This document shows, piece by piece, positions 41,301 through 60,177 of a stretch of DNA of 64,000 nucleotides (the stretch's first letter is position 1; every line of letters begins with the position of its first letter). The position numbers and the translations under genes were made by a program. Location: the NCBI RefSeq assembly GCF_053078305.1, contig NZ_CP166879.1, one strand, 5' to 3'. The notes under the pieces are model-generated. The model saw only the letters and a list, made by a program, of their open reading frames with translations. It made no database searches and had not been told where the DNA came from.

Positions 41301-42670
41301 GAAATCTCCAGTTTATCTCCAGCCACCTGGGTTTTTATTGGGCCTTTGCCAGTGATTTCGACATTGTCACCAAGACTCTTCGTCAGCGTCTTACCATCTC
41401 CACCTTTAATTTTGATGGCATCATTTTTTATTTCATTTTTCAGCGTTGTTCCGTCAATCGTCATTCCTTTATCATTAACAGTAACTGCAATATCTCCATC
41501 ACCTTTAACAGTTAAAGTGTTACCATTCTTATTATCCTTCCCACCATTAATAGTCGCAGAACCTCCCTTATCATCCTTTAGCGTCCACGTCGGATTAATG
41601 GCATCAAGGTCATCTTTCAGTGTCTTCGCTATCGCATATAACTGACTACCGTTAATGGCATCTGTACTTGTGTCAGAAATCGCACCCGCCCCCACGTTAA
41701 CAATCTGACGCTCTTTACCCGCATCACCAACAGATACTACTGATGCTGCGTTATTTCCGGCAAAGCCACTATATGTGACTTCCGCGCCTCTTTTAGTTCT
41801 GACCTTAGCCTCTGTTACTTTTTGTGCCTGCTTATCCCTGGAGTCAGCGCCGATGGACACGTTCCCCTTTGCGACAGTAACGGTTGCTCCATGCCCCAGG
41901 GCAACCGTTTCATTCTGAGCGGCATTTGCCTCTGAACCAACAGCAAGAGCATCGTTTTTATTTGCAGAGGACTGACTACCAACGGCCAGAGCATTACCGG
42001 CATTAGCCAGCGCATTAAAACCAACCGCAGTCGCCATATCCCCTTTAGCTTCCGCCGTGGCTCCAATTGCATTCGAGGCCATCCCCTCAGCAGAACTCAC
42101 CGAACCAAGCGATACTGACAATTCGCCTTTAGCAAAAGTTCTGCTGCCCAGCGCAATACTGCCATCCCCCTGCGCTTCCGATGCAAGATAGCCATTCTCT
42201 ATTTTTTCCCGACCATAAGTCTTACCATGCAAAGGAGTTAAATCATCCCCACCAATAACAATAGCCCCCCATCCGGTAGCTTTGGTATCGCCACCTATTG
42301 CAATTGACTGTTCTTTAGTTGCTTTCGTTTTCGCTCCTATCGCAATAGACTCGCCTGTGTACAAACCTTCCTTCGTGCTAATGTCACCTCCAGCCTCTGC
42401 ACTGGTACCAATCGCGATAGAGTTACGTCCTTCAGCCACCGGTGATTTATGGTCGAAATTAATTCCCTTTGATTCATCTTTTGCTGTAAATTTCGTTGTA
42501 CCTATTTCAATGCTCTTCCAGTCATCGCCATAGACATCATGGCCAAGGCTGGTTTCATCAACTTCAACAGTTAACTTATTTGTATCTGCCTGAGCACTGA
42601 CCTGTGATATGGATGCCGGATTAAGAACAAGTGATATGGCTATACAGATATGTTTTTTTCTGAGGTTCAT
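38339..42670 (-). CDS. large trimeric autotransporter adhesin (YadA family; UpaG/EhaG/SadA-like)
   Basis: Extended signal peptide MNLRKKHICIAISLVLNPASISQVSAQA with RBS gaggg; repetitive head/stalk; C-terminal YadA anchor ending ...GAGVGWQW (the ORF extends to 42703). Confidence 0.85.
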   Translation of the reverse strand: MNLRKKHICIAISLVLNPASISQVSAQADTNKLTVEVDETSLGHDVYGDDWKSIEIGTTKFTAKDESKGINFDHKSPVAEGRNSIAIGTSAEAGGDISTKEGLYTGESIAIGAKTKATKEQSIAIGGDTKATGWGAIVIGGDDLTPLHGKTYGREKIENGYLASEAQGDGSIALGSRTFAKGELSVSLGSVSSAEGMASNAIGATAEAKGDMATAVGFNALANAGNALAVGSQSSANKNDALAVGSEANAAQNETVALGHGATVTVAKGNVSIGADSRDKQAQKVTEAKVRTKRGAEVTYSGFAGNNAASVVSVGDAGKERQIVNVGAGAISDTSTDAINGSQLYAIAKTLKDDLDAINPTWTLKDDKGGSATINGGKDNKNGNTLTVKGDGDIAVTVNDKGMTIDGTTLKNEIKNDAIKIKGGDGKTLTKSLGDNVEITGKGPIKTQVAGDKLEISAETASLPVNGGNGKITVNNGDGDKLVTAKNIADAINQSGWKIKADKDTGGVIEGNGQGTETLIKPGDMVTLKAGKNLSVKQSGGDFTFSVIDTPSFSSVQLNGKGNNGSVTLSSEGNKLTLSGGNGAGQNGVVISGVASGLEGKELSTLTNTDKEMKNAASVADLKTAIDGVSSSMQGAGFALKDSDDKEVKQSLGQAIKVSGDSNITTTAITNGDKGLKISLNNDLSVGSNNTPGSIKVNGADGKEAVSLNGQDGTIKLTSSPAAGGKSASATIAVNAGKGGLTDAAGTTKTRLTYTPDGKSPAEELATMNDGLSFEGDDGKVIHKKLNEKLTIKGGAEKNAEVTDGNIRVDNDNGGLLVRMTRNLRDLASAVFGTGGQITTVNDKGITITTPAAGGGQGNTVSLTGSGLNNGGNQITSVASGLNGTALADAGGDVLNNAANIGDLKNALRDSSAALVNTGFGLQADDGSKVNTSLGKHITVGGDGQNISTTVQNGSLTVRLADNIRLGDDGSVSVGGTRMDKNGLTIKDGPSVTVNGIDAAGRVISGVKDGVNDQDAVNVSQLNREISQATAATTWALKTESGDEAVAVSSQTVEVRHGQNTRVSAISKDDKGNYSYEIDVTGIPVEYTDSQGNPLVNIGGRFYTQTEDAATGKLTMTPAEPARVRISSEQPLVLTNVAAGNVSPVSTDAVNGSQLASAARIAGGDNVVWKDGKAALAPDTFSELTTAGGGKTTVNGGVHKTPDNVADAVNMLNREGTKYFKAASSGQAAKAEGRDSIAVGQGAVSRGQNSIAMGNGAEVTRQAAAGSVAVGSHARAGRANTGTYALNGQAVAGRTGSDTAVVSFGQPGQERQLQSVAPGVLSANSTDAVNGSQLHATNRQVAGNTQAINTLGNKFSQLSYRVEELNRDIRGVGASAAAMSGIPQAYLPGKSLMGLGVGGYGGESAIAIGVSRISDNGKMIMKLNAGQNTRGNFSVGAGVGWQW

Positions 42671-43343
42671 ATATACCCTCTTTTCTCCTTTATTTTCTTC
42701 CACTCAGTCGGAATAGCATAAAAATCATGCATGAATATTATGTAAGGTGGACTACCTTCATTTCTTCAGCATCCATTTTTTATAAAGCCAGAAGTGAACA
42801 AAACGGGAACCATTAAAAAGCAGACAAAAGGCAATAAAGTGATTTATAATAATGCAAACATAAAACATATTAAGTTTAAGTAAACTACCCGACATTACGC
42901 GTTACAGCAGAATGCAGGTACACTACCTGCCATTGCCTGACGCACTGGCGAAGGCAGTAAAAATGAGATACATTTCACTTCGCAGCAAAAAAAACGAAAT
43001 CCTGCAATTTTTCTGATTTTACTGACAGAAAAGCCCGAGAGTTAAATTTAAATAACTTAAAAGATTCTGTGGTATAATCAGGTTCATACAGGCCTGATTG
43101 TTTCACAGGAAATTAAATCTTTTAAATCAACAGGCTATGGAGGTGTAATGGTGATGAATTGTGTAAAGATAGAGTGTGAGTATAACTGGAGTAATAAAAC
43201 CAAATTAAAATTATCAATATTTAACAAATGTAATTTATTAAGTTTATTTTTATCAAAATTAAAAGCATTACAACCTGGAAGCTGACGTTACTGATTACTA
43301 TACTGGTACCTGAGGCGCACGGCCTCAGGTTATCTATATTCTC

Positions 43344-45392
43344 TCAGAAGGATATTCTTACATTAGCCCAGTAACGACGTCCTTCATCGACCTGCCAGTT
43401 ACCATCAATGGTATCGATATCTTCGCTCTTTCTGTCTGTGACGTTAAGTACGGCAAAATTAATCAGCGTGCCTGGCAGGAACTGGTAATTCATACCAATA
43501 TCCATAGAAGTGAATCCATTACGAACACGGGGAACCTTGGCACCATTTCTTTGTGCTGCCCAGATTTGTTTTCCTGTATAATTCAGAGATGAATAAAATG
43601 TAATATCCTGAGTGTAATCCCATTCCAGTTTTGCATTGGCTGCATGTCTGGGAGTTCTTTCCAGAGGTTCCCCTTTCAGCGACTTGCCATTGAGACTTTC
43701 GTCATCGCTTTCTCGACGGGAGTCAGTGAATGTATAGTTTGCAGATACACGCCATTTATCATACACAGGAATCTGAGTTGCAAGCTCCACACCTCTGATA
43801 TTTGCCTCACCCACATTATCATAAATAAAAGTGTTTAGCCCAGTGACTGGATCTTTTGTGCCTATATCGTAACTGGTCAGCTTATTTTTAAAATCTGTAT
43901 TAAACAGAGTCGCGCTTGCTGAAAAACCACTGTCATTATTATAAATAATACCGATCTCTTCGGTTACACTGGTCTCCGGTTTCAGGTCCCTGTTTCCATA
44001 CATAATAGAGGCACCACCCTGCGTCAGTGTTCCAAATCCAGGACTGACCTCACGAATCGAAGGGGCCCGAAATGCTTTTGCGATCCCTCCTTTGAGAGTG
44101 AGATTATCGGTCAGGTTATAAACAGCATACAATCTTGGATTCCAGTAACTGCCATAGATTTCATGGTTATCGAGGCGCAACCCTCCAGTCAGGGCGAGAG
44201 AATCCGTTGCAGCATATTCATTTTCTATAAAAACAGCTTTCTGTTTAACTGAAACAGACTGTGTTTCTGTCGTTTTTTTACCTGTGGCTGAGTCATCACG
44301 GAGTTCTGCATGCTGAAATTGACCTCCGATGGTCAGCACATTTTCCGGCAGAAATGCCGTCACTTTTGCATCTATGATCGTGTTGGTTATTTCCGGTTTT
44401 CTTGACTCGTAATTAAGATCCCAATGATTATATTTATCTTTTTTACCAGATTTAACCTCACGAATAACTTTCTCCTGATAAACAGCAATTTCAGGATGCA
44501 GTATTTCGCCCTGGGCATTCCATGCTGCTACCCAGTGACTACGTGAGTTATGTGTTTCTCTTTTACTGTTTGGTTGTTTAAGATTTCCCCGCATAGTCCA
44601 GGCATCAAGAGAATCACCAGGTGTTAATGTATGTTCCTGGTTATTTTTTCCGTATTCAAAAACAAACTTCTGGCTTTCAGTCGGAGTAAACTGGAGTGTT
44701 GCCGTTATATTCTTATTATCTTTTGCTGGTGTTCCCTGAGAGATACTATCTTCCTTGCGATAGTTCATTCCTCCATATAACTGAAGACCAAGTTTATCCT
44801 TAACCAATGGGCCTGACAGGTAGAAGTCATTCGTGGTTGAGTTACCAAATTTCCCATGTTCCTGAATAATTCCCCCAAGCCCAAGTACGCCATCCCATGT
44901 CTGGTTATTAACAGGTTTGGTTATGATATTAATAACTCCTCCGATAGCATCGGAACCATACAGGGAAGACATAGGGCCACGTATAACTTCAATACGCTCA
45001 ATTGCTTCCACAGGAGGGATAAATCCGGCTTCAAAACCGCCGCTGCCGTTTGGTCTGGATTCCCGACCACTCTGACGTCGTCCATCGACCAGAATCAATG
45101 TATAATCGCCACTTAACCCACGTATACTGATATCCGGTTTTTCATTCCCACCGGTGATACTAATCCCTTCAACATCTTTTACCGCATCGACCAGGTCTGA
45201 AACCGGTTTTTTTTGCAGTTGCTCTGAAGTAATGACTGAAACACTGGCCGGTGCATTTCTGAGTTGCTGAGTGAAGCCGGAGGCAGTAACAACAAGCGTA
45301 TCTTCTTTTTTATCAGAACTGGCATAACCTGATGATATGACTGCAGAACATATCACGGCAATGCCCGGAGCAATGATATATTTGTTCTTCAT
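43344..45392 (-). CDS. TonB-dependent outer-membrane siderophore receptor (IrgA/IreA/Iha-like)
   Basis: Signal peptide from the internal ATG; TonB box DTLVVTAS; plug and barrel; C-terminal aromatic ...VRISF. Confidence 0.85.
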   Translation of the reverse strand: MKNKYIIAPGIAVICSAVISSGYASSDKKEDTLVVTASGFTQQLRNAPASVSVITSEQLQKKPVSDLVDAVKDVEGISITGGNEKPDISIRGLSGDYTLILVDGRRQSGRESRPNGSGGFEAGFIPPVEAIERIEVIRGPMSSLYGSDAIGGVINIITKPVNNQTWDGVLGLGGIIQEHGKFGNSTTNDFYLSGPLVKDKLGLQLYGGMNYRKEDSISQGTPAKDNKNITATLQFTPTESQKFVFEYGKNNQEHTLTPGDSLDAWTMRGNLKQPNSKRETHNSRSHWVAAWNAQGEILHPEIAVYQEKVIREVKSGKKDKYNHWDLNYESRKPEITNTIIDAKVTAFLPENVLTIGGQFQHAELRDDSATGKKTTETQSVSVKQKAVFIENEYAATDSLALTGGLRLDNHEIYGSYWNPRLYAVYNLTDNLTLKGGIAKAFRAPSIREVSPGFGTLTQGGASIMYGNRDLKPETSVTEEIGIIYNNDSGFSASATLFNTDFKNKLTSYDIGTKDPVTGLNTFIYDNVGEANIRGVELATQIPVYDKWRVSANYTFTDSRRESDDESLNGKSLKGEPLERTPRHAANAKLEWDYTQDITFYSSLNYTGKQIWAAQRNGAKVPRVRNGFTSMDIGMNYQFLPGTLINFAVLNVTDRKSEDIDTIDGNWQVDEGRRYWANVRISF

Positions 45393-45412
45393 AAATTTCC
45401 CTTTTCTAAAAT

Positions 45413-45431
45413 CGTAATGATAATGATTTGC
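45413..45431 (-). promoter_or_regulatory. Fur-box-like operator upstream of the TonB-dependent receptor
   Basis: cgTAATGATAATgATTtgC matches the 19 bp Fur consensus GATAATGATAATCATTATC at 14 of 19 positions, about 20 bp upstream of the start codon. Confidence 0.45.
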
Positions 45432-46158
45432 GTTAGCAAGAAAAAATTTACAATGAACAGAAAGGAAGGTAAATAACATTTAGCTCATTCAGGTAACACT
45501 TTGAACCTGTCCGACTTGATGAGAATCAGCCCCTTTCTACGAGGGACTCCTTACTGTATAATTTATAGTCCTGTCGAAGAGGTAAAATCTTTCAACCGGA
45601 TATCTCCATAAACAGCATTCCAGTAAATCAAGCAAGAGTGAACAGGAGACTGGTGCTGTTTATTACGGTATGCTTGTCCGATGTGGTGGAAAATAAAAAT
45701 GGGCGACTGACCAGATATGGGAGTCTCCGGTCAGTCATTCGCTTGTAGATGCAGGACATAAGCGAACCAAGGCCCACTGCTTCTGCGCAAAAGCAAGGGG
45801 GAGTTTACCCTGGTAGATTGAGTTTCGCGTCACTGACCAGTCAGAGCTTCAGACTCATCTTACACCACTAACCCCCTTACCACTCCTGAATCTTCCCTCG
45901 GCAACAGCCAAGACAGTATCGTACTGTTCACCACCATCTTTTCCCGTGAATGACAGTAAGTGCAAAGCCCCAATATAAATCAGTACTTCCGATGACAGAC
46001 AGTGAAGGCGTAAGGTGAAATATGCACGTAAGGCAGTATGACTTTCCGTGAGACAGATGCTGTCCAACGTGGGATATTTAATGCGGGTTAACATCGTTGT
46101 CAGAGCCGCATGGGTGAGCTGTTGCTACCCCCCTGGAATTTCCACCACGGAGGCCAGC

Positions 46159-47245
46159 ATGAACAACAATAACATGTTGTACGTCGAATTAGATGTTCAC
46201 AAAGAATCGATTACTGTCTCCTATGCTATCAATTCAGAACCTGTTGAACTGATGGGTAAAATTAGCACATCACCTACTGACATTCATAATCTTTATCAAC
46301 GTATCAGGTCAAAGTCATCGCAGGTCAGTATCGTTTATAAAGCGGGACCCTGTGGTTATGGACTTTATCGTCGGCTGGTGAAATCCGGTTTTGACTGCAT
46401 GGTCTGCGCCCCCTCACTTATCCCGAAAAAACCGGGGGAGCGGGGTAAAACCGACACCGTGATGCCATCAGACTTGTGCGTTCACTGCGTGCAGGAGATC
46501 TTTCTGCTGTCTACGTATCCGGCGTTGAAGATGAGGCATTCCGGGATTTGGCCCGGGCATGGGCATCTGCCCGCGATGATTTACGGCATGCAAGGCAACG
46601 TCTGAAATCGTTTCTTCTGGTTCATGGGGTCCATTATGTCGGGCGAGCAGATTGGGGCCCTGCACACCGACACTGGCTCAGCAAATACTCATTCGAAAGT
46701 CCCTGGCGACAATTAGCTTTTGACGAACACCGTTGTACAATAGAAGACCGGCAGGCACAATGTGAACGGCTGGAATCCGCCCGAAGGAGGCCGTTACCGA
46801 ATGGAGGCTGTATCCGGTAGTAGAGGCGCAGCAAGCCATGCGAGGGATTCAGTTTATTACTGCGGTTGGATTAATTTCTGAACTGGGTGATCTGACCCGT
46901 TTTGAACATCCACGACAACTGATGTCATGGTTTGGTATCACGCCATCAGAATATTCATCGGGTGGAAGCAGACATCAGGGCAGCATTACCAAAGCCGGAA
47001 ACAGCTATGCCAGAAAGCTATTGGTTGAGGCAGCGTGGAGTTACCGGCATCCGACACGCATCAGTCCGGCAATACAAAAAATCAGGAAAATTTACCCCGC
47101 CCCGTCATTGACAGAGCATGGGATGCTCAACTCAGGCTTTGCAAGAGGTCTCGAAAACTTCAGGCCAAAGGAAAGAATGTCAATATTACAATTGTCGCTG
47201 TCGCACGTGAGCAGGTGGTTTTATCTGGGATATGGGGCGGGATAG
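46159..47245 (+). pseudogene. IS110-family transposase, frameshifted into three ORFs
   Basis: Three consecutive ORFs in different frames together cover the N-terminal (YVELDVHKESI), middle and C-terminal (GSRHQGSITKAGNSYARKLL) regions of an IS110-type transposase. Confidence 0.7.
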
Positions 47246-47368
47246 CCACGTTTGTCGCACAATAACCACAATGTCACAAATAAAGAATGAGGATAACCAG
47301 TTCCCTGAAGGTGACGTAGCTCAGAACAAGAGTAACTCATGTTAGCTGTCTGGCGATGGCTGAAGTGG

Positions 47369-47686
<318 letters not shown>

Positions 47687-47693
47687 CTAAGAG

Positions 47694-48371
47694 TCAAGAC
47701 GTTATCGGGATGCAGTTAACATGCCTGTTTTGATTTCGTAGTAATGTATAAACTTCGCGTGAGATATAGCGCTTCAGACAGCGTATTGCTTCCATTTTTG
47801 TATGTCCTTCGGCTACTCGCCTGGAGACATATTCCTTTGTTTTATCGTCAGTTTGTAAACATCCTATAGTGATGATGTAAAGTGCACTATTTGCAACACG
47901 CTCCCCACCCCGATTAAGTCGGTAATGGTTCGTTTTTCCAGAAGATAGGGGAAACTGGCTGACACCGCACAACGCCGCAAAACCTGATTCGGTTCTTAAC
48001 CGTTAGGGATTGTCTCCGGCAGAGATCAACAACTGCAAAGCGCTTTCGTATCCAACAGCATTACGTTTAATCAGTTCAGGTGCCAGTTCATCAACAATTG
48101 CCGCAATCATGACATCCAAGTTGGTGATTTCATCATGAAACTCGAAATAGCGTCGAACAAGGGATTTCAATGTAATGCGATAAACGTTGGTAACATTACT
48201 GTATTCACTGGCATCAGGCCTCCAGGATCCCAGAGTCCTGATAAGTTGCATATGTGTCATATTTCTGAGTTGTTCGAGTAATTCATCCGGTGCAGAGATA
48301 ATATAGGAATGGATAATCTGGAGAGCGCCTCTGCGGGCTGATATTGCGGTTTTGCGGCAAATTTTTAGCAC
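47694..48371 (-). pseudogene. IS110-family transposase fragments
   Basis: C-terminal motif RLNRGGERVANSALYIITIGCLQ...AIRCLKRYISREVYTLLR; upstream ORF in a different frame. Confidence 0.55.
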
Positions 48372-48422
48372 CCGCTACTACGCCAAATACCTGAAGTAGA
48401 AATGGATGTGTCACGAACGGTA

Positions 48423-48456
<34 letters not shown>

Positions 48457-48576
48457 AACTTTTCATCCGTCGTTGACAGGATGCGTTAGCAGCACACATC
48501 CGGCTCTGCGCGGGGAATAGCCGGAAACGGCTATCCCTACCACAATAGCTAACTTTGCAATAATCCCCTTTTGAGC

Positions 48577-49608
48577 TCATGTACTCTGACGTAATTCTAT
48601 CTGGTAGTTGAATTGCACGATACGCGACTCTTCTGATTCATCATGATTATTATTCAATAGTCCAATCAGCAGCTTACCCGTCTCTGTCCCCATTTTTTTG
48701 TAGTCAATACGGATGGATGTCAAGGTTGGGTGTGTTTGATCGCAACTGTCTGAACCGTCAAGACAAGCTACAGCGATATTTCCAGGGATTTTTAACAAAC
48801 GCCGCTGGCACTCAAACATGATACCCAGCGCAATCTCTTCGTGGCTGCAAATCACAGCATCCAGCTCTGGTTGTCGCAGTAATATCTCGTTTAATGCGTA
48901 ACGCCCCAATTGCAAACTTGCGGCACCCGGCATGGTGATAACAAGATCAGAGTTCTGGTAATAGCTCAGCATTGCTTTATGCCAGCCGTTCAGTTGCTGA
49001 CGTTGCAGGCGGTTGTCCATATGCGCACCGATAAATCCGATATTCTTATAACCCTGTTCCAGCATATGTTCGGTCAGTTTATGTGATGCTTCAAAAAATG
49101 CTGTTTCGATGGTAATTTGAGCCGGACTGAAAGGGGAACCGACAACGTTAATGGTAGGTATATTTGTTTTCTCGAGTATCTGGTGAGTTTTATCAGCCAA
49201 CTGAGAACCAAAAATAACTAACGCCGCCGGGTTACCTTGAAGAAGCGTCATCAGGATTTCAGCTTCTTTGAGCTGATTATACTCATGACACCCAAGCAGT
49301 AGCTGGAATTCATTTTTATTAAGCACCTGCTGCAACGACTGCATAAAGCGGGAGCTGGTTTTATCTGTCAGGGAAGGAACCAGTACGGCGACTGTATGAC
49401 TGTGACCAGATGCAAGGGCGCCAGCAGTTCTGTTGGGAATATAACCCAACTCTTCTACGGCCTGTTCTATCTTTTCCCTCAGCTTGTCAGAAACCTGTTC
49501 CGGTGTTCTCAGCGCGCGGGAAACGGTCATGGTTCCGACACCTGCAAAGTTAGCGACCTCCTGCAGCGTCACCCGTCCGGTACCACGGCGCTTACGTGTT
49601 TTTCCCAT
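48577..49608 (-). CDS. LacI-family transcriptional regulator
   Basis: 343 aa; N-terminal HTH VTLQEVANFAGVGTMTVSRAL; periplasmic-binding-like effector domain. Confidence 0.85.
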   Translation of the reverse strand: MGKTRKRRGTGRVTLQEVANFAGVGTMTVSRALRTPEQVSDKLREKIEQAVEELGYIPNRTAGALASGHSHTVAVLVPSLTDKTSSRFMQSLQQVLNKNEFQLLLGCHEYNQLKEAEILMTLLQGNPAALVIFGSQLADKTHQILEKTNIPTINVVGSPFSPAQITIETAFFEASHKLTEHMLEQGYKNIGFIGAHMDNRLQRQQLNGWHKAMLSYYQNSDLVITMPGAASLQLGRYALNEILLRQPELDAVICSHEEIALGIMFECQRRLLKIPGNIAVACLDGSDSCDQTHPTLTSIRIDYKKMGTETGKLLIGLLNNNHDESEESRIVQFNYQIELRQST

Positions 49609-49878
49609 TTCGACTCCATGGATAATTACAACCAGCTGTTTTCATTACTTTTATTTTACCATTACTCTTTCCAGTTTTTGCCCACGGTAGCAAATATCCT
49701 GTTGCATTGTATATGCAGGAACCGAATATAGCCAAAGCATGGCGGCAGAGAAATGATAGCGCTATCACAAAGATCGGTAGCGTTATCAGATAGCGCTATC
49801 AAATGCGACAATCATCACATTAATTAATGCGTAAAATATCTACTCTCCTGTTAATTATCATCGGGAGTTATCAGTCGC

Positions 49879-50322
49879 ATGTTAAAAAATCTATTAAATA
49901 CAAAGGTCGTTCAGGTCGTGGAACAGGTCAAAGACTGGCGGGAAGCCGTGGCGATTTCATGCCGACCGTTGATTGAAAACGGTTCTATCGAACCACGTTA
50001 TGTTGATGCGATCTATCACTCTCACGACACTATCGGTCCGTACTATGTGGTTGGCCCTGGTATTGCGATGCCTCATGCGCGCCCGGAAGAGGGGGCTAAC
50101 AAGCTGTCATTAGCACTGACCCTGATCCCTTCAGGTGTGAATTTTGATGCCGATGAAAACGATCCAGTGAAATTACTGATTGTGCTGGCTGCAACCGACA
50201 GTACCAGCCACATTGAAGCGATTTCTCAACTCGCCAAGTTATTCGATAACGAAAAAGACATACAGGCTATTTTGACGGCCAAAACGACGCAGGACATTTT
50301 GTCTGTTATTGCGCGCTATTAA
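49879..50322 (+). CDS. PTS EIIA component (ascorbate/UlaC-like family)
   Basis: 147 aa; resembles UlaC/SgaA-type IIA with the conserved phosphorylatable His region (GIAMPHAR). Confidence 0.8.
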   Translation: MLKNLLNTKVVQVVEQVKDWREAVAISCRPLIENGSIEPRYVDAIYHSHDTIGPYYVVGPGIAMPHARPEEGANKLSLALTLIPSGVNFDADENDPVKLLIVLAATDSTSHIEAISQLAKLFDNEKDIQAILTAKTTQDILSVIARY

Positions 50323-50337
50323 TCCTGAGGAACATTT

Positions 50338-50625
50338 ATGAAAATTACAGTGGTTTGCGGTAACGGCTTAGGCACCAGCCTGATGATGGAAATGAGCATT
50401 AAAAGCATTTTGAAGGATTTGTCCGTCAGCGCTGATGTTGATCATGTCGACCTGGGCTCCGCGAAAGGGACGCCGAGTGATATCTATGTCGGCACCAAAG
50501 ACATTGCCGAGCAGTTAGTCGCGCAGTCTGTCGCAGGCAAAATCGTCGCACTGGAAAATATGATTGATAAGAAAGCCATGAGAGAACGTTTATCCGTGGC
50601 ATTAACCGAATTAGGCGCACTGTAA
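50338..50625 (+). CDS. PTS EIIB component (UlaB-like)
   Basis: 95 aa; N-terminal Cys motif KITVVCGNGLGTS. Confidence 0.8.
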   Translation: MKITVVCGNGLGTSLMMEMSIKSILKDLSVSADVDHVDLGSAKGTPSDIYVGTKDIAEQLVAQSVAGKIVALENMIDKKAMRERLSVALTELGAL

Positions 50626-50637
50626 GCTGGGGGCGAT

Positions 50638-51894
50638 ATGGATTTCTTTCGTTTTTTGATGAGCGATGTACTTTCCGAACCCGCAGTGCTGGTCGGTTTA
50701 ATCGCCCTGATTGGCCTGATTGCACAGAAAAAACCGGTAACCGAATGCATTAAAGGTACCGTCAAGACCATTATGGGGTTTGTGATTTTAGGCGCAGGGG
50801 CGGGTTTAGTTGTGTCGTCACTGAGTGACTTCGCAAACATTTTCCAGTATGCCTTTGGTATTCAGGGTGTAGTGCCGAACAATGAAGCCATTGTTTCCGT
50901 AGCGCAGAAAAGCTTCGGGAAAGAAATGGCGATGATTATGTTCTTTGCGATGGTTATCAACATTATGATTGCCCGTTTCACACCGTGGAAATTTATCTTC
51001 CTGACCGGTCATCACACGTTGTTTATGTCGATGATGGTAGCGGTAATTCTGGCAACAGCAGGCATGACCGGCATTACGCTTATAGCCGTTGGCTCTTTGG
51101 TTGTTGGCGTGGCAATGGTCTTTTTCCCGGCTATTGCGCATCCGTACATGAAGAAAGTGACCGGTTCTGATGACGTTGCCATCGGCCACTTCTCAACATT
51201 ATCTTATGTATTGGCCGGTTTCATCGGCAGCAAGTTTGGTAATAAAGAGCACTCGACTGAAGACATGAATGTGCCGAAAAGTCTGCTGTTCTTGCGCGAC
51301 ACGCCGGTTGCTATCTCTTTTACCATGAGCATAATTTTCCTGGTGACGTGCCTGTTTGCGGGTGCAGATGCGGTGAAAGAGCTTAGCGGTGGTAAAAACT
51401 GGTTCATGTTCTCTATCATGCAATCCATTACCTTCGCAGCTGGCGTGTACATCATTCTGCAGGGTGTGCGCATGGTGATTGCGGAGATTGTCCCGGCATT
51501 CAAAGGTATTTCAGACAAGCTGGTTCCGAATGCCAGACCTGCTCTCGATTGCCCGGTCGTCTTCCCTTACGCACCTAACGCTGTACTGGTTGGTTTCCTG
51601 AGTAGCTTTGCTGCAGGTTTAATCGGTATGTTCACGTTGTATTTGCTGAACATGATCGTGATTATTCCTGGTGTGGTGCCGCACTTCTTCGTAGGTGCAG
51701 CTGCAGGGGTATTCGGTAATGCAACGGGTGGACGTCGTGGTGCGATTTTGGGTGCCTTCGCTCAGGGCTTGCTTATTACCTTCCTGCCAGTATTCTTATT
51801 GCCTGTGCTGGGTAACATTGGTTTTGCTAACACCACCTTCAGTGATGCTGACTTTGGCGCACTGGGTATTTTGTTAGGGATTATCGTTCGCTAA
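50638..51894 (+). CDS. PTS EIIC permease (UlaA/SgaT-like)
   Basis: 418 aa polytopic membrane protein, colinear with UlaA as recalled; somewhat shorter than UlaA (about 465 aa). Confidence 0.8.
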   Translation: MDFFRFLMSDVLSEPAVLVGLIALIGLIAQKKPVTECIKGTVKTIMGFVILGAGAGLVVSSLSDFANIFQYAFGIQGVVPNNEAIVSVAQKSFGKEMAMIMFFAMVINIMIARFTPWKFIFLTGHHTLFMSMMVAVILATAGMTGITLIAVGSLVVGVAMVFFPAIAHPYMKKVTGSDDVAIGHFSTLSYVLAGFIGSKFGNKEHSTEDMNVPKSLLFLRDTPVAISFTMSIIFLVTCLFAGADAVKELSGGKNWFMFSIMQSITFAAGVYIILQGVRMVIAEIVPAFKGISDKLVPNARPALDCPVVFPYAPNAVLVGFLSSFAAGLIGMFTLYLLNMIVIIPGVVPHFFVGAAAGVFGNATGGRRGAILGAFAQGLLITFLPVFLLPVLGNIGFANTTFSDADFGALGILLGIIVR

Positions 51895-51907
51895 TATTTT
51901 GATGACA

Positions 51908-51960
51908 TTAATATCCTCCAGGATTTCAGGAACGTGGAGGATATTAATTCCTCTTATTTT
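51908..51960 (+). terminator. putative intrinsic terminator after the PTS IIC gene
   Basis: Perfect 13 bp inverted repeat TTAATATCCTCCA / TGGAGGATATTAA around a 14 nt loop, followed by a T-rich tract. Confidence 0.45.
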
Positions 51961-52260
51961 CTCCATTTTTCTTTCTTCCAGTCAGGACTGCATCTGATTA
52001 ATCGTAAGCGCTCCGGGAAGTACGTCGCGTAAGGATTATTTTACAGCTGAGAAGTTTCAGTGCAGCAGTTCATGCACACGGTTCGACGGCTAGTCATTGA
52101 TCTTCATAATTACCTCGCGTAAAAAACGGGGTAAGGCCGCTCATCCAGCGTCATCTCCACAGGTAATAATTCAACGCCAATGCCAGAAGAGTTCCTTACC
52201 GGAAGACGCCGTGATATACGCCCTTTGATCGTAAGCGTCAACGGAGCACCGTATTGACGC

Positions 52261-53853
52261 TTATTTATTGGTGAGTACTACGTTCCATGGCAAGAGTTCA
52301 TCAACTCGGTTGGAAGGCCATTCCGGCAGTACGCTCAGGATATGGCGCAGATACGCTTCCGGATCGATACCGTTCAGACGGCAGGTGCCGATCAGCCCGT
52401 ACAACAGTGCTCCACGCTCGCCGCCGTGATCGCTGCCAAAGAACATAAAGTTTTTCTTTCCGAGACAGACTGCACGAAGCGCTCTTTCCGCAGCATTATT
52501 ATCCGCCTCCGCCAGACCGTCATCACTGTAATAACAGAGGGCATCCCACTGATTCAGTACATAGCTGAACGCTTCGCCCAGTCTGGATTTTTTCGACAGC
52601 GTACCATTCTTCTCCACCATCCATTCATGCAGCGACGTCAGTAACACTTTGCTTCGCTGCTGCCTGACGGAAAGACGCTCTGACTCCGGTAATCCCCGTA
52701 TTTCATCCTCGATGGCGTACAGTTCACTGATTCGCTTCAGGGCTTCTTCTGCCTTCGCACTTTTGCTGCTGATGTATACATCGTGGATTTTTCGCCGGGC
52801 ATGGGCCCAGCACGCAACTTCTGTCAGTGCACCACCTTCACGTTCTGCACTGAACAACCTGTCGTAACCTGTGAACGCATCCGCCTGCAGGATACCCCGG
52901 AAGGGGCGGAGGTGTTGCTCCGGGTGTTTCCCCTGCCGGTTCGGCGAGTACGCGAACCAGACCGCTGGAGGAGATGACGAACCCACATTGCGATCATCCC
53001 GGACATACGTCCAGATACGCCCTGTTTTCGCCTTTTTCTGACCCGGTGCCAGTACCTTTACCGGTGTGTCATCAGTGTGAACCTTGCGGGTGTTCATTAC
53101 ATAACGGTACAGGGCATCATTCACCGGTGTCATTAACTGGCAGCACGCGTCAACCCAGTTGGAGAGTAAGGCCCGGCTCAGTTCGACACCCTTGCGGGCA
53201 AAGATTTCACTCTGACGATACAGTGGCAGATGTTCGCAGTATTTTCCCGTTAACACGCGGGCAAGTAATCCGGGGCCCGCGATACCACGCTCTATCGGGC
53301 GGGACGGCGCCGGTGCTTCAACGATGCAGTCACATTTTGTACAGGCTTTTTTTACCCGTTCTGTGCGGATCACTTTCAGGGCGCTGCTCACCAGTTCCAG
53401 TTGTTCTGCACTGACTTCCCCCAGATAATCCAGCTCACCGCCACACTCCGGGCAACAGCTTTCTTCAGACTCCAGACGGTGTATTTCACGGGGAAGGTGT
53501 GCCGGTAACGGACGACGATGGCGCGACTGTCGCAACTGGCGGGGAACCTGTGGATCGTCTTCCCGCCCACTGTAACGATCGCTGTCCTGTTCGCGTTGTT
53601 TCAGCAGGGCCTCAGCCTGTTCAACTTCACGACGCAGTTTTTCAGAACGGGTACCGAACAGCATCCGGCGCAGTTTTTCTATCTGAGCCCGCAGATGTTC
53701 TATTTCCCGTTCATCTTCTTCGATCTTTTCTTCGGCACGTGCCAGTGCAGAGCGCAGGAAGGCCTCCGTCTCTTCAACCAGACTCAGTTGCTGGTCTTTC
53801 TGACGGAGCTGGCTTTCCAGTTCTGCAATGCGAATGAGGTATTTCTGACTCAT
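52261..53853 (-). CDS. IS66-family transposase (TnpC / Orf3)
   Basis: 530 aa; N-terminal coiled-coil/leucine zipper, zinc-finger-like CxxC pairs, DDE core. Confidence 0.9.
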   Translation of the reverse strand: MSQKYLIRIAELESQLRQKDQQLSLVEETEAFLRSALARAEEKIEEDEREIEHLRAQIEKLRRMLFGTRSEKLRREVEQAEALLKQREQDSDRYSGREDDPQVPRQLRQSRHRRPLPAHLPREIHRLESEESCCPECGGELDYLGEVSAEQLELVSSALKVIRTERVKKACTKCDCIVEAPAPSRPIERGIAGPGLLARVLTGKYCEHLPLYRQSEIFARKGVELSRALLSNWVDACCQLMTPVNDALYRYVMNTRKVHTDDTPVKVLAPGQKKAKTGRIWTYVRDDRNVGSSSPPAVWFAYSPNRQGKHPEQHLRPFRGILQADAFTGYDRLFSAEREGGALTEVACWAHARRKIHDVYISSKSAKAEEALKRISELYAIEDEIRGLPESERLSVRQQRSKVLLTSLHEWMVEKNGTLSKKSRLGEAFSYVLNQWDALCYYSDDGLAEADNNAAERALRAVCLGKKNFMFFGSDHGGERGALLYGLIGTCRLNGIDPEAYLRHILSVLPEWPSNRVDELLPWNVVLTNK

Positions 53854-53883
53854 GACCGTTTTTATAATGCGGTCAGGATTTTT

Positions 53884-54234
53884 TTACAACATTGTCAGTG
53901 AGTTACGGCGGGATGTTTTTGGCTGACGCCAGTCCAGCTTATCGAGGAGCATTGCCAGTTGCGAGCGGGTAATGGATACCTTGCCGTCACGTACCGCAGG
54001 CCAGATAAACTGGCCTTCCTCCAGGCGTTTAGTGAACAGGCACAGACCATCAGCATCAGCCCAAAGAATTTTAACGGTGTCACCCCGTCGGCCACGGAAG
54101 ATAAACAGGTGACCGGAGAAGGGATTATCATTCAGCACATGTTGTACCTGTTCTCCCAGTCCGTTGAAGGATTTACGCATATCGGTAACGCCGGCAACGA
54201 GCCAGATACGGGTACCTGATGGGAGTGAGATCAT
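53884..54234 (-). CDS. IS66 Orf2 (TnpB) accessory protein
   Basis: 116 aa; characteristic position and size; overlaps Orf1 by 4 bp. Confidence 0.85.
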   Translation of the reverse strand: MISLPSGTRIWLVAGVTDMRKSFNGLGEQVQHVLNDNPFSGHLFIFRGRRGDTVKILWADADGLCLFTKRLEEGQFIWPAVRDGKVSITRSQLAMLLDKLDWRQPKTSRRNSLTML

Positions 54235-54656
54235 CTTCCCCTCCCGGTCAGTTCACGGATCAACACCGTGAGCAGCTCTGGCGATGGATTTTCCAGCGTC
54301 ATGTTACCGTGACGGAATTCCACCTTGCAGGAGCTGGCACTGACTCTGGTCTGAGAGGTAGTGGATAAAGATGGCGCAATGGCCACCACAGGTTCTTTCT
54401 GCTCATCCGGCGTTATTTCTACAGGTAATAATTCAACGCCAGTGTCAGAAGAGGTCGTTACCGGAAGACGCCGCGAAACACGCCCTTCGTTCTGCCAGAG
54501 CCTGAGCCATTTGAACAGGAGGTTATCATTGATATCGTGTTCCCGGGCGATACGGGCAACAGAGGCTCCTGGTTGCAAAGCCAGTTTAACCATTTGAAGT
54601 TTAAAATTATTTGAAAATGATCTGCGGGGTTCTGCGGATAATGTTTTTTGCTCCAT
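54231..54656 (-). CDS. IS66 Orf1 (TnpA) accessory protein
   Basis: 141 aa; N-terminal HTH-like region (FKLQMVKLALQPGASVARIAREHDINDNLLFKW). Confidence 0.8.
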   Translation of the reverse strand: MEQKTLSAEPRRSFSNNFKLQMVKLALQPGASVARIAREHDINDNLLFKWLRLWQNEGRVSRRLPVTTSSDTGVELLPVEITPDEQKEPVVAIAPSLSTTSQTRVSASSCKVEFRHGNMTLENPSPELLTVLIRELTGRGR

Positions 54657-54748
54657 AACAGGCGTCCACTAGTTTGAAAAGGTGGGCACCTACGTTACCA
54701 ATACTGGCTTAATGGCTACATACGGCAGTCGGTTTACGCTTACCTTTG

Positions 54749-54993
54749 ATCAGCCAGAGCCTGAGCCATTTGAACAGAAGATTATCATTGATATCATGCT
54801 CCCGGGCAATACGGGCAACAAAAACCCTTGGTTGTAAAGCCAGTTTAACCATTTGAAGTTTAAACTCATTTGAAAATGACCTGCGGGGTTCTGCGGATAA
54901 TGTTTTTTGTTCCATAACAGGCATCCACTAGTTTGAAAAGGTGGGCACCTACGTTACCAATACTGGCTTAATGGCTACATACGACGGTCGGTT
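54749..54993 (-). mobile_element. partial tandem duplicate of the IS66 left end (with truncated orf1 copy at 54709-54924)
   Basis: About 245 bp roughly 95% identical to 54493-54748, including a second GTAAGCG-type terminal repeat at 54993. Confidence 0.7.
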
Positions 54994-55045
54994 TACGCTT
55001 ACCAGAAAACTAATAGTGCTATATGCAATTTTTAATATTCAGACT

Positions 55046-57727
55046 TTAGCCTGACAGGCCTGACAAAAACGCGCCCAACTTCCCTTCTATATCACTGTCT
55101 ATAGTACGTAATCTTAGCAATGGCAGACCACATTTCTTCAGTATACTGTTTTTAAGTTCATCACGTTCAGCCTGGACACTGGTCAGATGATAGCCTCCAT
55201 CCACTTCAATAACCCCTAATGGAGTCTTCCCGACCTTATAGTAAACAACAAAGTCACAACTGGCCCGATTACGCATGAATAACAGTTCACGGTGAGTAAA
55301 ATCTCCCCGCTCCAGCAACACCAACTGATTCAGCGCTATTTGTGAATGAAACATCATGCTCCGATAACTATCCTGCGACAGGATATCCCGCAACAGGCAG
55401 GCCACAATCTGTTCTGACTTAAAGCGTGAATCATCTGAATTCAATCTACTATTCAGTCGTTCCAGTGATTTGTCATACTCACTGTACAGCAAATCAAATG
55501 CTGATATCACCGGGCTCTCGAAAATCTCTCCGTCATCAGCGTAGTATCTGATGTAACGAATCAGTGCCGCAATATGTCCAGCGTGGCGTTCAAATACATC
55601 ATTACCAGTCACCAACGTAAATTTGTTTCGGGCCCTTGAAACAGCGACATTCACCAGTTCAGGATTATCAACAAACGCGATATTCCGACTTTGCTGGCTG
55701 CTGCGTTTCTTATCCAGCACAGTGGAAAACACAATTTCATCGCACTCCCGTCCCTGAAATTTATGCACCGTCGATTTCACAAAATCAGCGGGCAGCACTG
55801 TTTCAGCCAGATTAACCTGTGCATTATATGGGGCGATATATCCCCTGCTACTTTCCTCATCCCAGTAATGTCCTTCCAGAGATTCAAGCTCCCTGAGATT
55901 TGAAAAATTACGGGTATGGTTTCCTTTTGCCGTGATGATCAGAGATAATGAGGCTTCACCTGAATCAAGCGTTAGCGGTATCAGAGCATTATCATAAAAC
56001 TGCTTATTACAAAATTGAATGATTTTAGGATGACAGCGATAATGCTCTTTAAGAAGAGTTACTGGCACCATATTCCTGAACGACATACAAACCGAATCAA
56101 GTAGACTATATTTCTCACAATTATAGTATTCTGCCGGTGGAGATGGGCTGTTCGGGAGTAATACAGGAACATGTGGAAGTTGCTTTCGATCCCCTACAAC
56201 GATTACATTACGGGCACATCCTAGTCCCAGAATGCCCGGAACAATATCCTGCTGTGAGGCTTCATCAATAATCACATAATCAAGAAGAGCCCCCTTACCG
56301 ATAGAGTTAATAATAGAATGCGTGCTGCTACCAATAACCGGAAAACGCTTTATAAAACGGTTAAATTCATCCCTGTATGTCTCTGCCGAGAATGAATTTC
56401 TTGTTGAAATATTTCTTCGCAGATGTTGTTTTAAATAAAGCACAGACCATGATGTCAGGCGCTCCAGTAAAATTTTAAAATCAGATTCCTTTAATACTTT
56501 CTCATATTCATTCAAAGAAATTTGTTTTTCCCGGATGGATTTTTCATAATAAGAAAGCTGAAGAGAAGTAAATAGTGCCAGCCTTCTCTCCGGAATCACC
56601 AATGGTTTGACTTTCAGTATCCTGAAGTTTAACAACAAATCAATTCTGTTTCTGAATCCAATCCGCCTGTCAGAAAGGTAATGAATATAAGCCATCAGGT
56701 CAGTTGTTTTTCGTGAGGAAAGTCGGTATTTGTGAGAAAAAAGCTCCTCCGGTCGAAGATTCTGACTCTGCCATTGCTGCAGGTATTTATACTCAACACT
56801 CAGTTCATTAATTTCTGCTTTTAACGAAGCAACCTGGTTGATAGCATTCAGGTGTTTTTTCACTTGTTGAAGTACATCATCAATCATATTTGCAGACGGT
56901 GAGTCAGGTAAGACTTCCTCAGAACGCGAAATCGACGTTGAAAAAAACTGTTGTCTGTTCTCCGTACTTCCCAGTCGTGCCACCACATATCCCAGTCGTT
57001 GTTTGTCCATTTTTTCATAAACATTACTGACAGCTGAGTTATTATTGGACAAAATTGCCACTGTTTTATTCTGAATTAATATATTGGCAACAATATTGAG
57101 AATAGTCTGTGTTTTACCTGTCCCAGGTGGTCCTTCAATAACTGAAATCTGTGAGGAAAATGCCCGTTCAACCGCCATTAACTGACTCTCATTCAGGCCA
57201 AACGGAAAAATCAACCCCCATGGCGAATCACGTTTTTTACTCTGTCCTGAACAGTATGCATGCAAGGCGGTATCCGGATGAGGAACTATTTTCTTTATCT
57301 GTCTGAGGATATTCTCATCGATATTTTTATTATTACCTCGAGCATAAAAAACACGTTCGTCAGCCACCCTGCACAAGTAATTAAACACGGCATGCTCTGT
57401 AAATGCTGAACACTGTTGAAAGTCAAGTCCGGTCGTTTTCATGATGTAGGGTCGTTCGCTCTCACGGTAATAAACAGCAGCATATTTATCACCATAGATA
57501 ATAACCCGTTCAGCCCGGGATGTTACAGCGTTCCCTTTCCTTTCGAGGAAAACATTTCGCAAAATTACAGTTGGCGTTATCTGACATACAGAAAGCGGAC
57601 GAGTATATTTTTTCCCGCTGCGAAAATGACAGGTCAGCATAACCTCTCCGTCATCATTTCCAGCCCACAGAGTCCAGTCGGTAATTTTATGAGTCTTATT
57701 TTCACCGTCAACACAAATCGTGACCAT
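55046..57727 (-). CDS. SF1 (Upf1/DNA2-like) helicase with C-terminal DUF559/Vsr-like nuclease-fold domain; candidate single-gene defence protein
   Basis: 893 aa; Walker A GPPGTGKT; motif II VIIDEASQ; C-terminal DFVVYYK...GVIEVDGGYH...LPLLRLR resembles the DUF559/Vsr-like PD-(D/E)xK fold; about 190 aa N-terminal domain of unknown function. Confidence 0.7.
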   Translation of the reverse strand: MVTICVDGENKTHKITDWTLWAGNDDGEVMLTCHFRSGKKYTRPLSVCQITPTVILRNVFLERKGNAVTSRAERVIIYGDKYAAVYYRESERPYIMKTTGLDFQQCSAFTEHAVFNYLCRVADERVFYARGNNKNIDENILRQIKKIVPHPDTALHAYCSGQSKKRDSPWGLIFPFGLNESQLMAVERAFSSQISVIEGPPGTGKTQTILNIVANILIQNKTVAILSNNNSAVSNVYEKMDKQRLGYVVARLGSTENRQQFFSTSISRSEEVLPDSPSANMIDDVLQQVKKHLNAINQVASLKAEINELSVEYKYLQQWQSQNLRPEELFSHKYRLSSRKTTDLMAYIHYLSDRRIGFRNRIDLLLNFRILKVKPLVIPERRLALFTSLQLSYYEKSIREKQISLNEYEKVLKESDFKILLERLTSWSVLYLKQHLRRNISTRNSFSAETYRDEFNRFIKRFPVIGSSTHSIINSIGKGALLDYVIIDEASQQDIVPGILGLGCARNVIVVGDRKQLPHVPVLLPNSPSPPAEYYNCEKYSLLDSVCMSFRNMVPVTLLKEHYRCHPKIIQFCNKQFYDNALIPLTLDSGEASLSLIITAKGNHTRNFSNLRELESLEGHYWDEESSRGYIAPYNAQVNLAETVLPADFVKSTVHKFQGRECDEIVFSTVLDKKRSSQQSRNIAFVDNPELVNVAVSRARNKFTLVTGNDVFERHAGHIAALIRYIRYYADDGEIFESPVISAFDLLYSEYDKSLERLNSRLNSDDSRFKSEQIVACLLRDILSQDSYRSMMFHSQIALNQLVLLERGDFTHRELLFMRNRASCDFVVYYKVGKTPLGVIEVDGGYHLTSVQAERDELKNSILKKCGLPLLRLRTIDSDIEGKLGAFLSGLSG

Positions 57728-58235
57728 ATTCTCACTCAGTAATTATCATTTAACTTACGGAAAATTGTTATGAAACTCCCGATATTTACCCGGTAAAATA
57801 CTTGTCATTGTTTGAAGCCCTCCCTAAAAAATGACCAGGCATTTGATAACCCGGTGTATTTCTCCCGATATGAGCTCCGGAGGATTTTCCACAACTCCGG
57901 GTGTGTTAACATATTCCCGCCGGCCATATATACATTGAGTTCAGTCATAACAGTCAATACCAGGATTACAGGAACGCGATGCTGATACGCTGGTTATTGA
58001 ATACTGGTAGCCCCTAACTACTAATTCATCACGATACTCTGTACTTACTGTTTTTTACAACCATTCCCCCAGGTAAAAGAGTCCATTTATCATGCCCCTC
58101 TTTAACGCCTGCCAGCATAATTTAAGAATGGATACCGTGGGTGGAATTAACAATACCTGCTCAGGCCAATGCCATGTAACCGCCTCACTGAAAAAGCCAG
58201 ATCATCTAACCAGGTACAGACCAACATCGCAAAAA

Positions 58236-58385: not shown

Positions 58386-58400
58386 GTTTTATCTCAGCCA

Positions 58401-59765: not shown

Positions 59766-59819
59766 CGGCAGATTCAGTGTTGCTGTATCAAATCATAATT
59801 AATATTCCCGGAAAGAGCG

Positions 59820-60128: not shown

Positions 60129-60177
60129 TCAGCCCTCGTTTATGTCTGTTAAGCACACGGATAAGGGGAACCATAAA

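What the first reader, a model, noticed from the sequence alone, without database searches (positions are those of the whole stretch)
45392..45440. Fur-box-like site upstream of the TonB-dependent receptor
A 14 of 19 match to the Fur consensus overlaps the predicted promoter of the IrgA/IreA/Iha-like receptor, consistent with iron-repressed expression of an accessory siderophore receptor or adhesin.
Basis: partly seen in the sequence, partly recalled or inferred. Interest (0 to 1): 0.3.

Follow-up and report, generated by a model that had tools for sequence, protein, structure and literature searches.

The report
Known Fur operator of ireA

Summary
The Fur consensus GATAATGATAATCATTATC matches 14/19 at 45413-45431(+) and 45419-45437(+), and 15/19 at 45419-45437(-). 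The two registers are 6 bp apart, 21-45 nt upstream of the ATG (45392, minus strand) of a 682-aa TonB-dependent receptor.

- **Gene identity:** the receptor is IreA, not Iha. It matches NCBIfam NF010011 over its full length at 1514 bits (cut-off 1197).
- **Chance:** one 14/19 match means little (about 2.8 expected per 64 kb). A Fur matrix built from 12 published sites still ranks this site first in the whole window.
- **Published evidence:** the minus-strand 19-mer GCTAACGCAAATCATTATC is letter for letter the motif reported under the Fur ChIP-seq peak of ireA (c5174) in E. coli CFT073. There ireA rises 39-fold in a fur mutant (Banerjee et al. 2020, PMC7157518).
- **Conservation:** the surrounding 27-nt block is identical in 338 of the 341 complete E. 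coli genomes that match it, although the flanks differ. IreA homologues in Proteus and Salmonella carry their best Fur-matrix hit at the same position.

Verdict: a real Fur operator, already known, in a divergent ireA allele on a mosaic island. The promoter overlap is plausible but unproven, because no transcription start is mapped. Interest is low.

The parts
45413..45437 (-). Fur operator made of two overlapping 19-bp Fur boxes 6 bp apart. Minus strand reads GCTAAC GCAAAT C ATTATC ATTACG; the core is AATCATTATCATT.
   Evidence: 14/19 and 15/19 consensus matches. PWM scores 14.77 and 14.24 bits, ranked first and fourth in the window. The 19-mer at 45419-45437(-) is identical to the published ireA motif under the CFT073 Fur ChIP-seq peak.
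45413..45439 (-). 27-nt invariant block TTGCTAACGCAAATCATTATCATTACG that contains the operator.
   Evidence: Identical in the five sequences of the first alignment (window plus four other alleles) and in CFT073, with substitutions and a 1-nt indel immediately on both sides. 100% identical in 338 of 341 E. coli genomes that match it.
45445..45473 (-). Best conserved candidate sigma-70 promoter: -35 TTTACC (45473-45468), 17-nt spacer, -10 TAAATT (45450-45445). It would place the transcription start near 45438, so the operator would cover about +1 to +25. Inferred only.
   Evidence: 8/12 match. Both hexamers are invariant in all alleles aligned. Homology with the O177:H21 allele group ends about 20 nt upstream of the -35, at about 45492. 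No TSS data found.
45411..45439 (-). Alternative candidate promoter TTGCTA-17-TACGAT, which would enclose the operator in its spacer. Its -10 exists only in the window allele (CFT073 has TACGCC).
   Evidence: 8/12 match; allele comparison.
45398..45403 (-). Shine-Dalgarno-like AAGGGA, 5 nt before the ATG.
   Evidence: Read directly from the sequence; invariant in all alleles.
43344..45392 (-). ireA coding sequence: 682 aa plus stop, a TonB-dependent siderophore receptor. The signal peptide ends ...SSGYA, and a DTLVV TonB-box-like motif follows.
   Evidence: NF010011 IreA equivalog at 1513.8 bits against a cut-off of 1197, aligned 1-682/682. PGAP calls ireA at the same coordinates in a 99.9%-identical genome. 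Translation.

Best explanation
Window 45413-45437 is the Fur operator of ireA. When iron is plentiful, Fe2+-Fur dimers bind the two overlapping 19-bp boxes (a 25-bp array of GATAAT-like hexamers). The boxes sit just upstream of the ribosome-binding site, at or immediately downstream of the ireA promoter. Bound Fur keeps RNA polymerase from initiating or clearing the promoter. When iron is scarce, Fur leaves and the outer-membrane receptor IreA is made.

Shown, but in E. coli CFT073 and on an identical operator sequence: Fur occupancy in vivo, and 39-fold derepression in a fur mutant that is independent of RyhB.

Shown here: the sequence match, its first rank in the window, its invariance across ireA alleles, and the same placement of a Fur box in Proteus and Salmonella homologues.

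Inferred: that the same happens in the strain the window comes from, and the exact geometry relative to the promoter.
For: - **Motif identity:** the 19-mer at 45419-45437(-) equals the motif GCTAACGCAAATCATTATC listed for ireA/c5174 in Table S5B of PMC7157518.
- **ChIP-seq position:** the ChIP-seq summit (4935947, height 1485) lies inside that motif (4935945-4935963). The motif ends 26 nt before the CFT073 ireA ATG (4935990), the same gap as in the window.
- **Expression:** RNA-seq fur-/wt is 39.4 and ryhB-/wt is 1. ireA expression was lower in high-iron medium in APEC DE205B, and Russo et al. 2001 is cited for iron regulation.
- **Rank in the window:** top PWM hit of the window.
- **Conservation:** the 27-nt block is invariant while its flanks carry 7 substitutions and 1 indel within about 50 nt. 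It is 100% identical in 338 of 341 genomes.
- **Other genera:** the Proteus mirabilis IreA homologue (56.5% aa identity) has its locus-best Fur hit (21.1 bits, 16/19) 37 nt upstream of its ATG. A Salmonella salamae plasmid homologue (72% identity) has its best hit (17.9 bits, 15/19) 24 nt upstream. P. mirabilis ireA is reported as induced by iron limitation.
Against: - No experiment exists for this allele or strain.
- Each single box is a weak match: 14-15/19 and 14-15 bits, at the low end of reference sites. About 2.8 matches of 14/19 are expected per 64 kb by chance.
- The invariance of the 27-nt block rests on few independent lineages, essentially the window allele against the ExPEC/plasmid alleles. 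With about 11% flank divergence, 27 unchanged bases have roughly a 4% chance of arising without selection.
- The block could also be conserved because it carries promoter elements.
- No transcription start is mapped, so the repression geometry is unknown.
Confidence: 0.93

Rival explanations
1. The match is a chance A+T-rich resemblance in an A+T-rich promoter region and has no regulatory role in this strain.
For: The 108 nt upstream of the ATG are 71% A+T. About 2.8 matches of 14/19 are expected per 64 kb at random, and the window holds other hits of equal consensus score inside coding sequences (46279, 22024, 44420).
Against: The identical 19-mer sits under a strong Fur ChIP-seq peak with 39-fold derepression in CFT073. 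It is the top PWM hit of the window. The 27-nt block is invariant in 338 of 341 genomes. Homologues in two other genera have a Fur box at the same position.
Confidence: 0.03
2. The invariant 27-nt block is conserved mainly because it is core promoter (for example -35 TTGCTA with a spacer), or the site of another regulator. Fur binding is secondary, or is weakened in this allele by the flank changes. Iron control here would then be looser than in CFT073, or would run through another factor.
For: TTGCTA-17-TACGAT is an 8/12 promoter candidate that encloses the box. The window allele differs from CFT073 by a 1-nt deletion just upstream of the block and 4 substitutions just downstream. These changes could alter promoter strength or the contacts of extended Fur oligomers.
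Against: The -10 of that candidate is not conserved (TACGCC in CFT073 and all other alleles), so it cannot explain conservation of the block. All bases of both 19-bp boxes are unchanged. Fur occupancy and fur-dependent expression are documented on the same operator.
Confidence: 0.04

Closest known systems
Fur box of ireA (c5174) in uropathogenic E. coli CFT073 (Banerjee et al. 2020, mBio, PMC7157518, Tables S1 and S5)
   Same: Identical 19-mer GCTAACGCAAATCATTATC and identical 27-nt block. Same 26-nt distance to the ATG and the same gene family.
   Different: The window carries a divergent ireA allele, 93-95% nucleotide identity to the common ExPEC and plasmid alleles and >=99% to only 20 of the 458 matching records. 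There are 7 substitutions and one 1-nt indel in the 50 nt flanking the operator. Further upstream there are 7-nt and 13-nt indels. The genomic context is also different, a mosaic island.
Classical E. coli Fur operators of siderophore-receptor genes (iucA, fhuA, fepA, cirA, iha, iroN): 19-bp consensus GATAATGATAATCATTATC, read as arrays of GATAAT hexamers
   Same: Consensus match in two registers 6 bp apart, placed next to the start of a TonB-dependent receptor gene. The direction of regulation is repression by iron.
   Different: It is a weaker match than most: 14-15/19, against 16-18/19 for iucA, chuA and sitA in the same table. Its matrix score is at the low end of the reference sites.
Fur boxes upstream of IreA homologues in Proteus mirabilis and a Salmonella enterica subsp. 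salamae plasmid
   Same: The best Fur-matrix hit of each locus lies 24-37 nt upstream of the start codon, as in the window. P. mirabilis ireA is reported as induced by iron limitation.
   Different: The operator sequences differ (GATAATATTAATCATTCTC; TATAATGAGAAGCGTTATC) and are closer to consensus. The promoters cannot be aligned with the window. The Salmonella copy looks truncated (460-aa ORF).

Membership tests
Fur operator (Fur box) of an iron-repressed promoter | Match to the 19-bp consensus or hexamer array GATAATGATAATCATTATC | tested here: met
   14/19, 14/19 and 15/19 in two registers 6 bp apart. Matrix scores of 14.77 and 14.24 bits rank first and fourth of about 128,000 positions, within but at the low end of the leave-one-out range of reference sites.
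Fur operator (Fur box) of an iron-repressed promoter | Position at or overlapping the promoter of the regulated gene | tested here: inconclusive
   The box lies 21-45 nt upstream of the ireA ATG. No sigma-70 site of >=9/12 was found. Three 8/12 candidates would put the box at +1..+25 or in the spacer. No mapped TSS was found in the held literature.
Fur operator (Fur box) of an iron-repressed promoter | Fur occupancy of the site | not testable with these tools
   Not measurable for this strain. Published ChIP-seq in CFT073 gives a peak of height 1485 with its summit at 4935947, inside the identical 19-mer.
Fur operator (Fur box) of an iron-repressed promoter | Derepression of the downstream gene in a fur mutant or under iron limitation | not testable with these tools
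   Published: ireA is 39.4-fold up in CFT073 fur-, with no effect of ryhB. Expression is lower in high-iron medium in APEC DE205B. Not tested for the window's allele.
Fur operator (Fur box) of an iron-repressed promoter | Conservation of the site among orthologous promoters | tested here: met
   The 27-nt block is invariant among alleles that are 93-95% identical overall and 100% identical in 338 of 341 genomes. Fur-matrix top hits sit at the same position in the Proteus and Salmonella homologues.
IreA family TonB-dependent siderophore receptor (NCBIfam NF010011) | Full-length match above the curated cut-off of the equivalog model | tested here: met
   1513.8 bits against a cut-off of 1197, aligned 1-682 of 682. 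PGAP names the 99.9%-identical gene ireA.
IreA family TonB-dependent siderophore receptor (NCBIfam NF010011) | Siderophore or iron-transport activity, or adhesin activity, of the protein | not testable with these tools
   The ligand of IreA is described as poorly characterised. An adhesion role is reported in APEC.
   The 696-position TonB-dependent receptor model NF010012 scores 377 bits against a cut-off of 924. CirA NF007478 scores 399 against 745. PGAP annotates iha as a separate gene in other genomes.

The most novel reading that the evidence does not exclude
The window's divergent ireA allele keeps the operator intact but has remodelled flanks. There is a 1-nt deletion between the conserved -10-like TAAATT and the operator. 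The changes CC->AT, G->A and C->A just downstream create a -10-like TACGAT, giving TTGCTA-17-TACGAT. Together these could form a second, operator-embedded promoter, or change basal level and tightness of iron control relative to the ExPEC allele.
Probability: 0.12. Interest if true: 0.15.

Novelty: already known. Interest (0 to 1): 0.08.

Why it matters
It matters little beyond annotation. The result assigns the gene correctly (ireA, not iha) and lets the operator be annotated with experimental backing transferred from CFT073. It also shows that iron control of this vaccine-candidate receptor is sequence-invariant across essentially all sequenced E. coli that carry it, including a divergent allele on a mosaic island. 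It opens no new question.

Tried and rejected
- **Iha versus IreA:** on first reading I took the protein for Iha from memory. The BLAST annotation and NCBIfam show it is IreA.
- **Long ORF:** the 711-aa ORF starting at 45479 is not the gene. The family model aligns 1-682 from the ATG at 45392, and PGAP uses that start.
- **Collinearity with strain 2013C-3033:** I assumed the whole window was collinear with that strain and first mapped the other Fur-like hits on its annotation. BLAST shows that only 18318-23578 and 30230-52230 are collinear, so those hits were re-mapped on the window's own ORFs.
- **Source genome:** no complete E. coli genome in the collection covers >=80% of window 1-20000 or 44000-64000. 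The source strain was not identified.
- **Original ireA paper:** Russo et al. 2001 is not held, so its statements are cited only second-hand.
- **Promoter and TSS:** the sigma-70 scan gave no promoter in the intergenic region. The literature search for an ireA transcription start gave nothing usable.
- **Searches not run:** I did not run the expensive genome- or metagenome-wide scans, protein-representative searches or structure prediction, because the answer did not depend on them.

Full report
**What is in the sequence.** The finding spans 45392-45440. On the minus strand the region reads ...TTTACCTTCCTTTCTGTTCATTGTAAATTTTTTCTTGCTAACGCAAATCATTATCATTACGATTTTAGAAAAGGGAAATTTATGAAGAAC.... The ATG at 45392 opens a 682-codon reading frame that ends at 43344. 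The mechanical ORF list extends it to an in-frame ATG at 45479 (711 aa), but that extension is not part of the gene (see the next section).

Against the Fur consensus GATAATGATAATCATTATC the scores are as follows:

| Position | Strand | Match |
|---|---|---|
| 45413-45431 | + | 14/19 |
| 45419-45437 | + | 14/19 |
| 45419-45437 | - | 15/19 (GCTAACGCAAATCATTATC) |

There are in fact two overlapping boxes 6 bp apart, the arrangement expected for Fur sites read as arrays of GATAAT-like hexamers (established knowledge; Escolar/de Lorenzo and Baichoo/Helmann models, the latter cited in PMC7157518). Together they cover 45413-45437, which is 21-45 nt upstream of the start codon.

**Identity of the gene.** The protein matches the NCBIfam equivalog NF010011 'IreA family TonB-dependent siderophore receptor' over its full length, 1-682 of 682, at 1513.8 bits against a curated cut-off of 1197. 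All other receptor models fall below their cut-offs, including a 696-position model (377 against 924) and CirA (399 against 745).

A megablast against 5,426 complete E. coli genomes finds the 2.4-kb region in 445 genomes, full length in 340. It is everywhere annotated 'ireA: TonB-dependent siderophore receptor IreA'. Only 20 of the 458 matching records are >=99% identical to the window, and most are 93-95% identical, so the window carries a minority allele. In the 99.9%-identical genome 2013C-3033, PGAP starts ireA at the position equivalent to 45392.

My own first impression from memory, Iha, was wrong.

**Is it more than chance?**

- **Consensus matches:** first-order Markov simulations of 64 kb with the window's composition give 2.8 +/- 1.8 positions at >=14/19 and 0.25 +/- 0.49 at >=15/19. 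One 14/19 match alone therefore proves nothing.
- **This window:** it has 11 positions at >=14/19 and 3 at >=15/19, and three of the 11 belong to this one site.
- **Matrix scan:** I built a log-odds matrix from 12 distinct Fur motifs listed under CFT073 ChIP-seq peaks (Table S5B of PMC7157518), leaving ireA out. With it, 45413-45431(+) is the best hit in the whole window on either strand (14.77 bits) and 45419-45437(-) is the fourth (14.24 bits).
- **Random expectation for the matrix:** a hit of >=14.77 bits occurs 0.27 times per random 64 kb, or roughly 4e-4 for a 100-nt promoter region.
- **Strength of each register:** each is weak compared with the reference sites, whose leave-one-out scores run from 11.5 to 25.1 bits with a median near 17.
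- **Other high scorers:** those at 46279 (in an IS110 pseudogene), 1263, 22024 and 20525 lie inside ORFs and are probably chance. The one at 59788 is intergenic and is described under 'Noticed in passing'.

**Experimental evidence from the literature.** Banerjee et al. 2020 (mBio 11:e00351-20, PMC7157518) mapped the Fur regulon of uropathogenic E. coli CFT073 by ChIP-seq and RNA-seq. They list ireA among direct Fur targets in pathogenicity islands.

- Table S1 gives for ireA (c5174) a peak summit height of 1485, RNA-seq fur-/wt of 39.4, ryhB-/wt of 1 and fur-ryhB-/wt of 45.3.
- Table S5A places the peak at 4935947.
- Table S5B gives the motif found under it as GCTAACGCAAATCATTATC, at 157-175 of 4935789-4936098, which is 4935945-4935963, with q = 0.00057. 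This is letter for letter the window's 45419-45437(-).

In the CFT073 record ireA starts at 4935990. The motif therefore ends 26 nt before the ATG, exactly as in the window, and the ChIP summit falls inside the motif.

Li et al. 2016 (PMC4988017) report lower ireA expression in high-iron than in low-iron medium in an avian pathogenic strain. They cite Russo et al. 2001 for iron regulation of ireA. The 2001 paper itself is not held.

**Conservation.** I aligned the upstream region of the window with four other alleles (two ExPEC-type chromosomes, an O177:H21 chromosome and a STEC plasmid) and with CFT073.

- The 27-nt block TTGCTAACGCAAATCATTATCATTACG (45439-45413) is invariant in all of them.
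- Immediately upstream the window has TTTTTTC- where the others have TTTCCTCT or TTCCCTCT.
- Immediately downstream the window has ATTTTAGA where the others have CCTTTGGC.
- A short-query blastn finds the block in 341 genomes. It is 100% identical over the 27 nt in 338 of them and has a single mismatch in 3.
- In one allele group (O177:H21 and relatives) homology ends at about window 45492 because of an upstream IS3 element. The roughly 100 nt retained with the gene include the operator and the candidate promoter.

Two caveats apply. The alleles represent few independent lineages. With about 11% divergence in the flanks, 27 unchanged bases would occur by chance about 4% of the time.

Independent support comes from other genera.

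- **Proteus mirabilis:** the IreA homologue (56.5% aa identity) has the best Fur-matrix hit of its 3.6-kb locus (GATAATATTAATCATTCTC, 21.1 bits, 16/19) 37 nt upstream of its ATG.
- **Salmonella enterica subsp. salamae:** a plasmid homologue (72% identity) has its best hit (17.9 bits, 15/19) 24 nt upstream of its ATG.
- **Regulation:** P. mirabilis ireA is reported as induced by iron limitation (Himpsl et al. 2010, as summarised in PMC11026637).

**Mechanism.** The best-supported reading is classical Fur repression. With iron, Fe2+-Fur dimers occupy the 25-bp array and block transcription of ireA. Without iron, the site is vacated and IreA is produced.

What is not settled is the geometry. The consensus scan finds no sigma-70 promoter of >=9/12 in the intergenic region. 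A relaxed scan gives three 8/12 candidates:

| Candidate | Coordinates | Comment |
|---|---|---|
| TTTACC-17-TAAATT | 45473-45445 | Both hexamers invariant in all alleles. The start would be near 45438 and the operator would cover about +1 to +25. |
| TTTTCT-16-TATCAT | 45444-45417 | Its -10 lies inside the operator. |
| TTGCTA-17-TACGAT | 45439-45411 | The operator fills the spacer, but its -10 exists only in the window allele (others have TACGCC), so it cannot be the ancestral promoter. |

No mapped transcription start for ireA was found.

**Context.** The window is a mosaic island, not the CFT073 ireA locus.

- Downstream of ireA lie a 1454-aa trimeric-autotransporter adhesin (38339-42703) and an OmpA/TpgA-like protein (37541-38314).
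- Upstream lie a frameshifted IS110 transposase, further IS remnants, a LacI-family regulator and a PTS operon.
- Further right lie an IS66 transposase, a helicase-like protein and a type VI secretion cluster.
- Only 18318-23578 and 30230-52230 are collinear with strain 2013C-3033. No complete E. coli genome in the collection covers either end of the window.
- No gene diverges from ireA within 700 bp, so the operator serves ireA alone.

**Verdict.** The feature is the already published Fur box of ireA, carried unchanged by a divergent allele. Novelty: already known. Interest is low.

The only open points are the unmapped transcription start and whether the allele-specific flank changes alter the level or tightness of iron control.

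Noticed in passing
window 59788-59809: A Fur-matrix hit almost as strong as the ireA one: TCAAATCATAATTAATATT scores 14.39 bits on the plus strand and 11.7 bits in the overlapping minus-strand register. It lies in a short intergenic gap 23 nt upstream of the ATG (59765, minus strand) of a TssA-like gene, inside a type VI secretion cluster (tssF-tssG-tssJ-tssE...tssA). From memory, Fur control of an E. coli T6SS cluster (EAEC sci1) has been described. Whether this internal site is functional is unknown.
   Followed up: partly
window 45500-45530 (minus strand, 110-140 nt upstream of the ireA ATG): Two length polymorphisms separate ireA alleles. An 8-nt unit GCTGTTCT occurs once in truncated form in the window (GCTGATTCT), twice in ST69 and CFT073, and three times in SCU-306. 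The gap falls between 45527 and 45526. A 13-nt stretch AGGAAATTATTCG present in the other alleles is absent from the window, between 45503 and 45502. Any effect on expression is unknown.
   Followed up: no
window 45393-45479: The receptor's reading frame stays open for 29 codons upstream of the true start, back to an ATG at 45479, so the mechanical ORF is 711 aa. This extension runs through the Fur operator and the candidate promoter and would mislead a gene caller. The family model and PGAP both support the start at 45392.
   Followed up: yes
window 1-64000: The window is a mosaic. Only 18318-23578 and 30230-52230 are collinear, at 97-98% identity, with the genome that has the 99.9%-identical ireA. 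No complete E. coli genome in the collection covers >=80% of either 20-kb end. ARAGORN finds no tRNA gene in the window, whereas in strain 2013C-3033 the corresponding island sits next to a tRNA-Phe gene.
   Followed up: partly
window 23798-30871 (minus) and 31156-35883 (minus): A 2357-aa ORF lies next to genes that, in the collinear part of strain 2013C-3033, are annotated as a type I secretion system (HlyD-family adaptor, permease/ATPase, TolC-family protein). In that strain the large gene region is annotated as two shorter proteins (GA-like domain protein and a hypothetical protein). This is probably a large repetitive T1SS-secreted adhesin whose length differs between strains.
   Followed up: no
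window 46279-46297, 22024-22042, 22105-22123: Further 14-15/19 matches to the Fur consensus lie inside coding sequence: a frameshifted IS110 transposase and a 642-aa ORF. They are most likely chance matches and show how little a bare 14/19 match means.
   Followed up: partly
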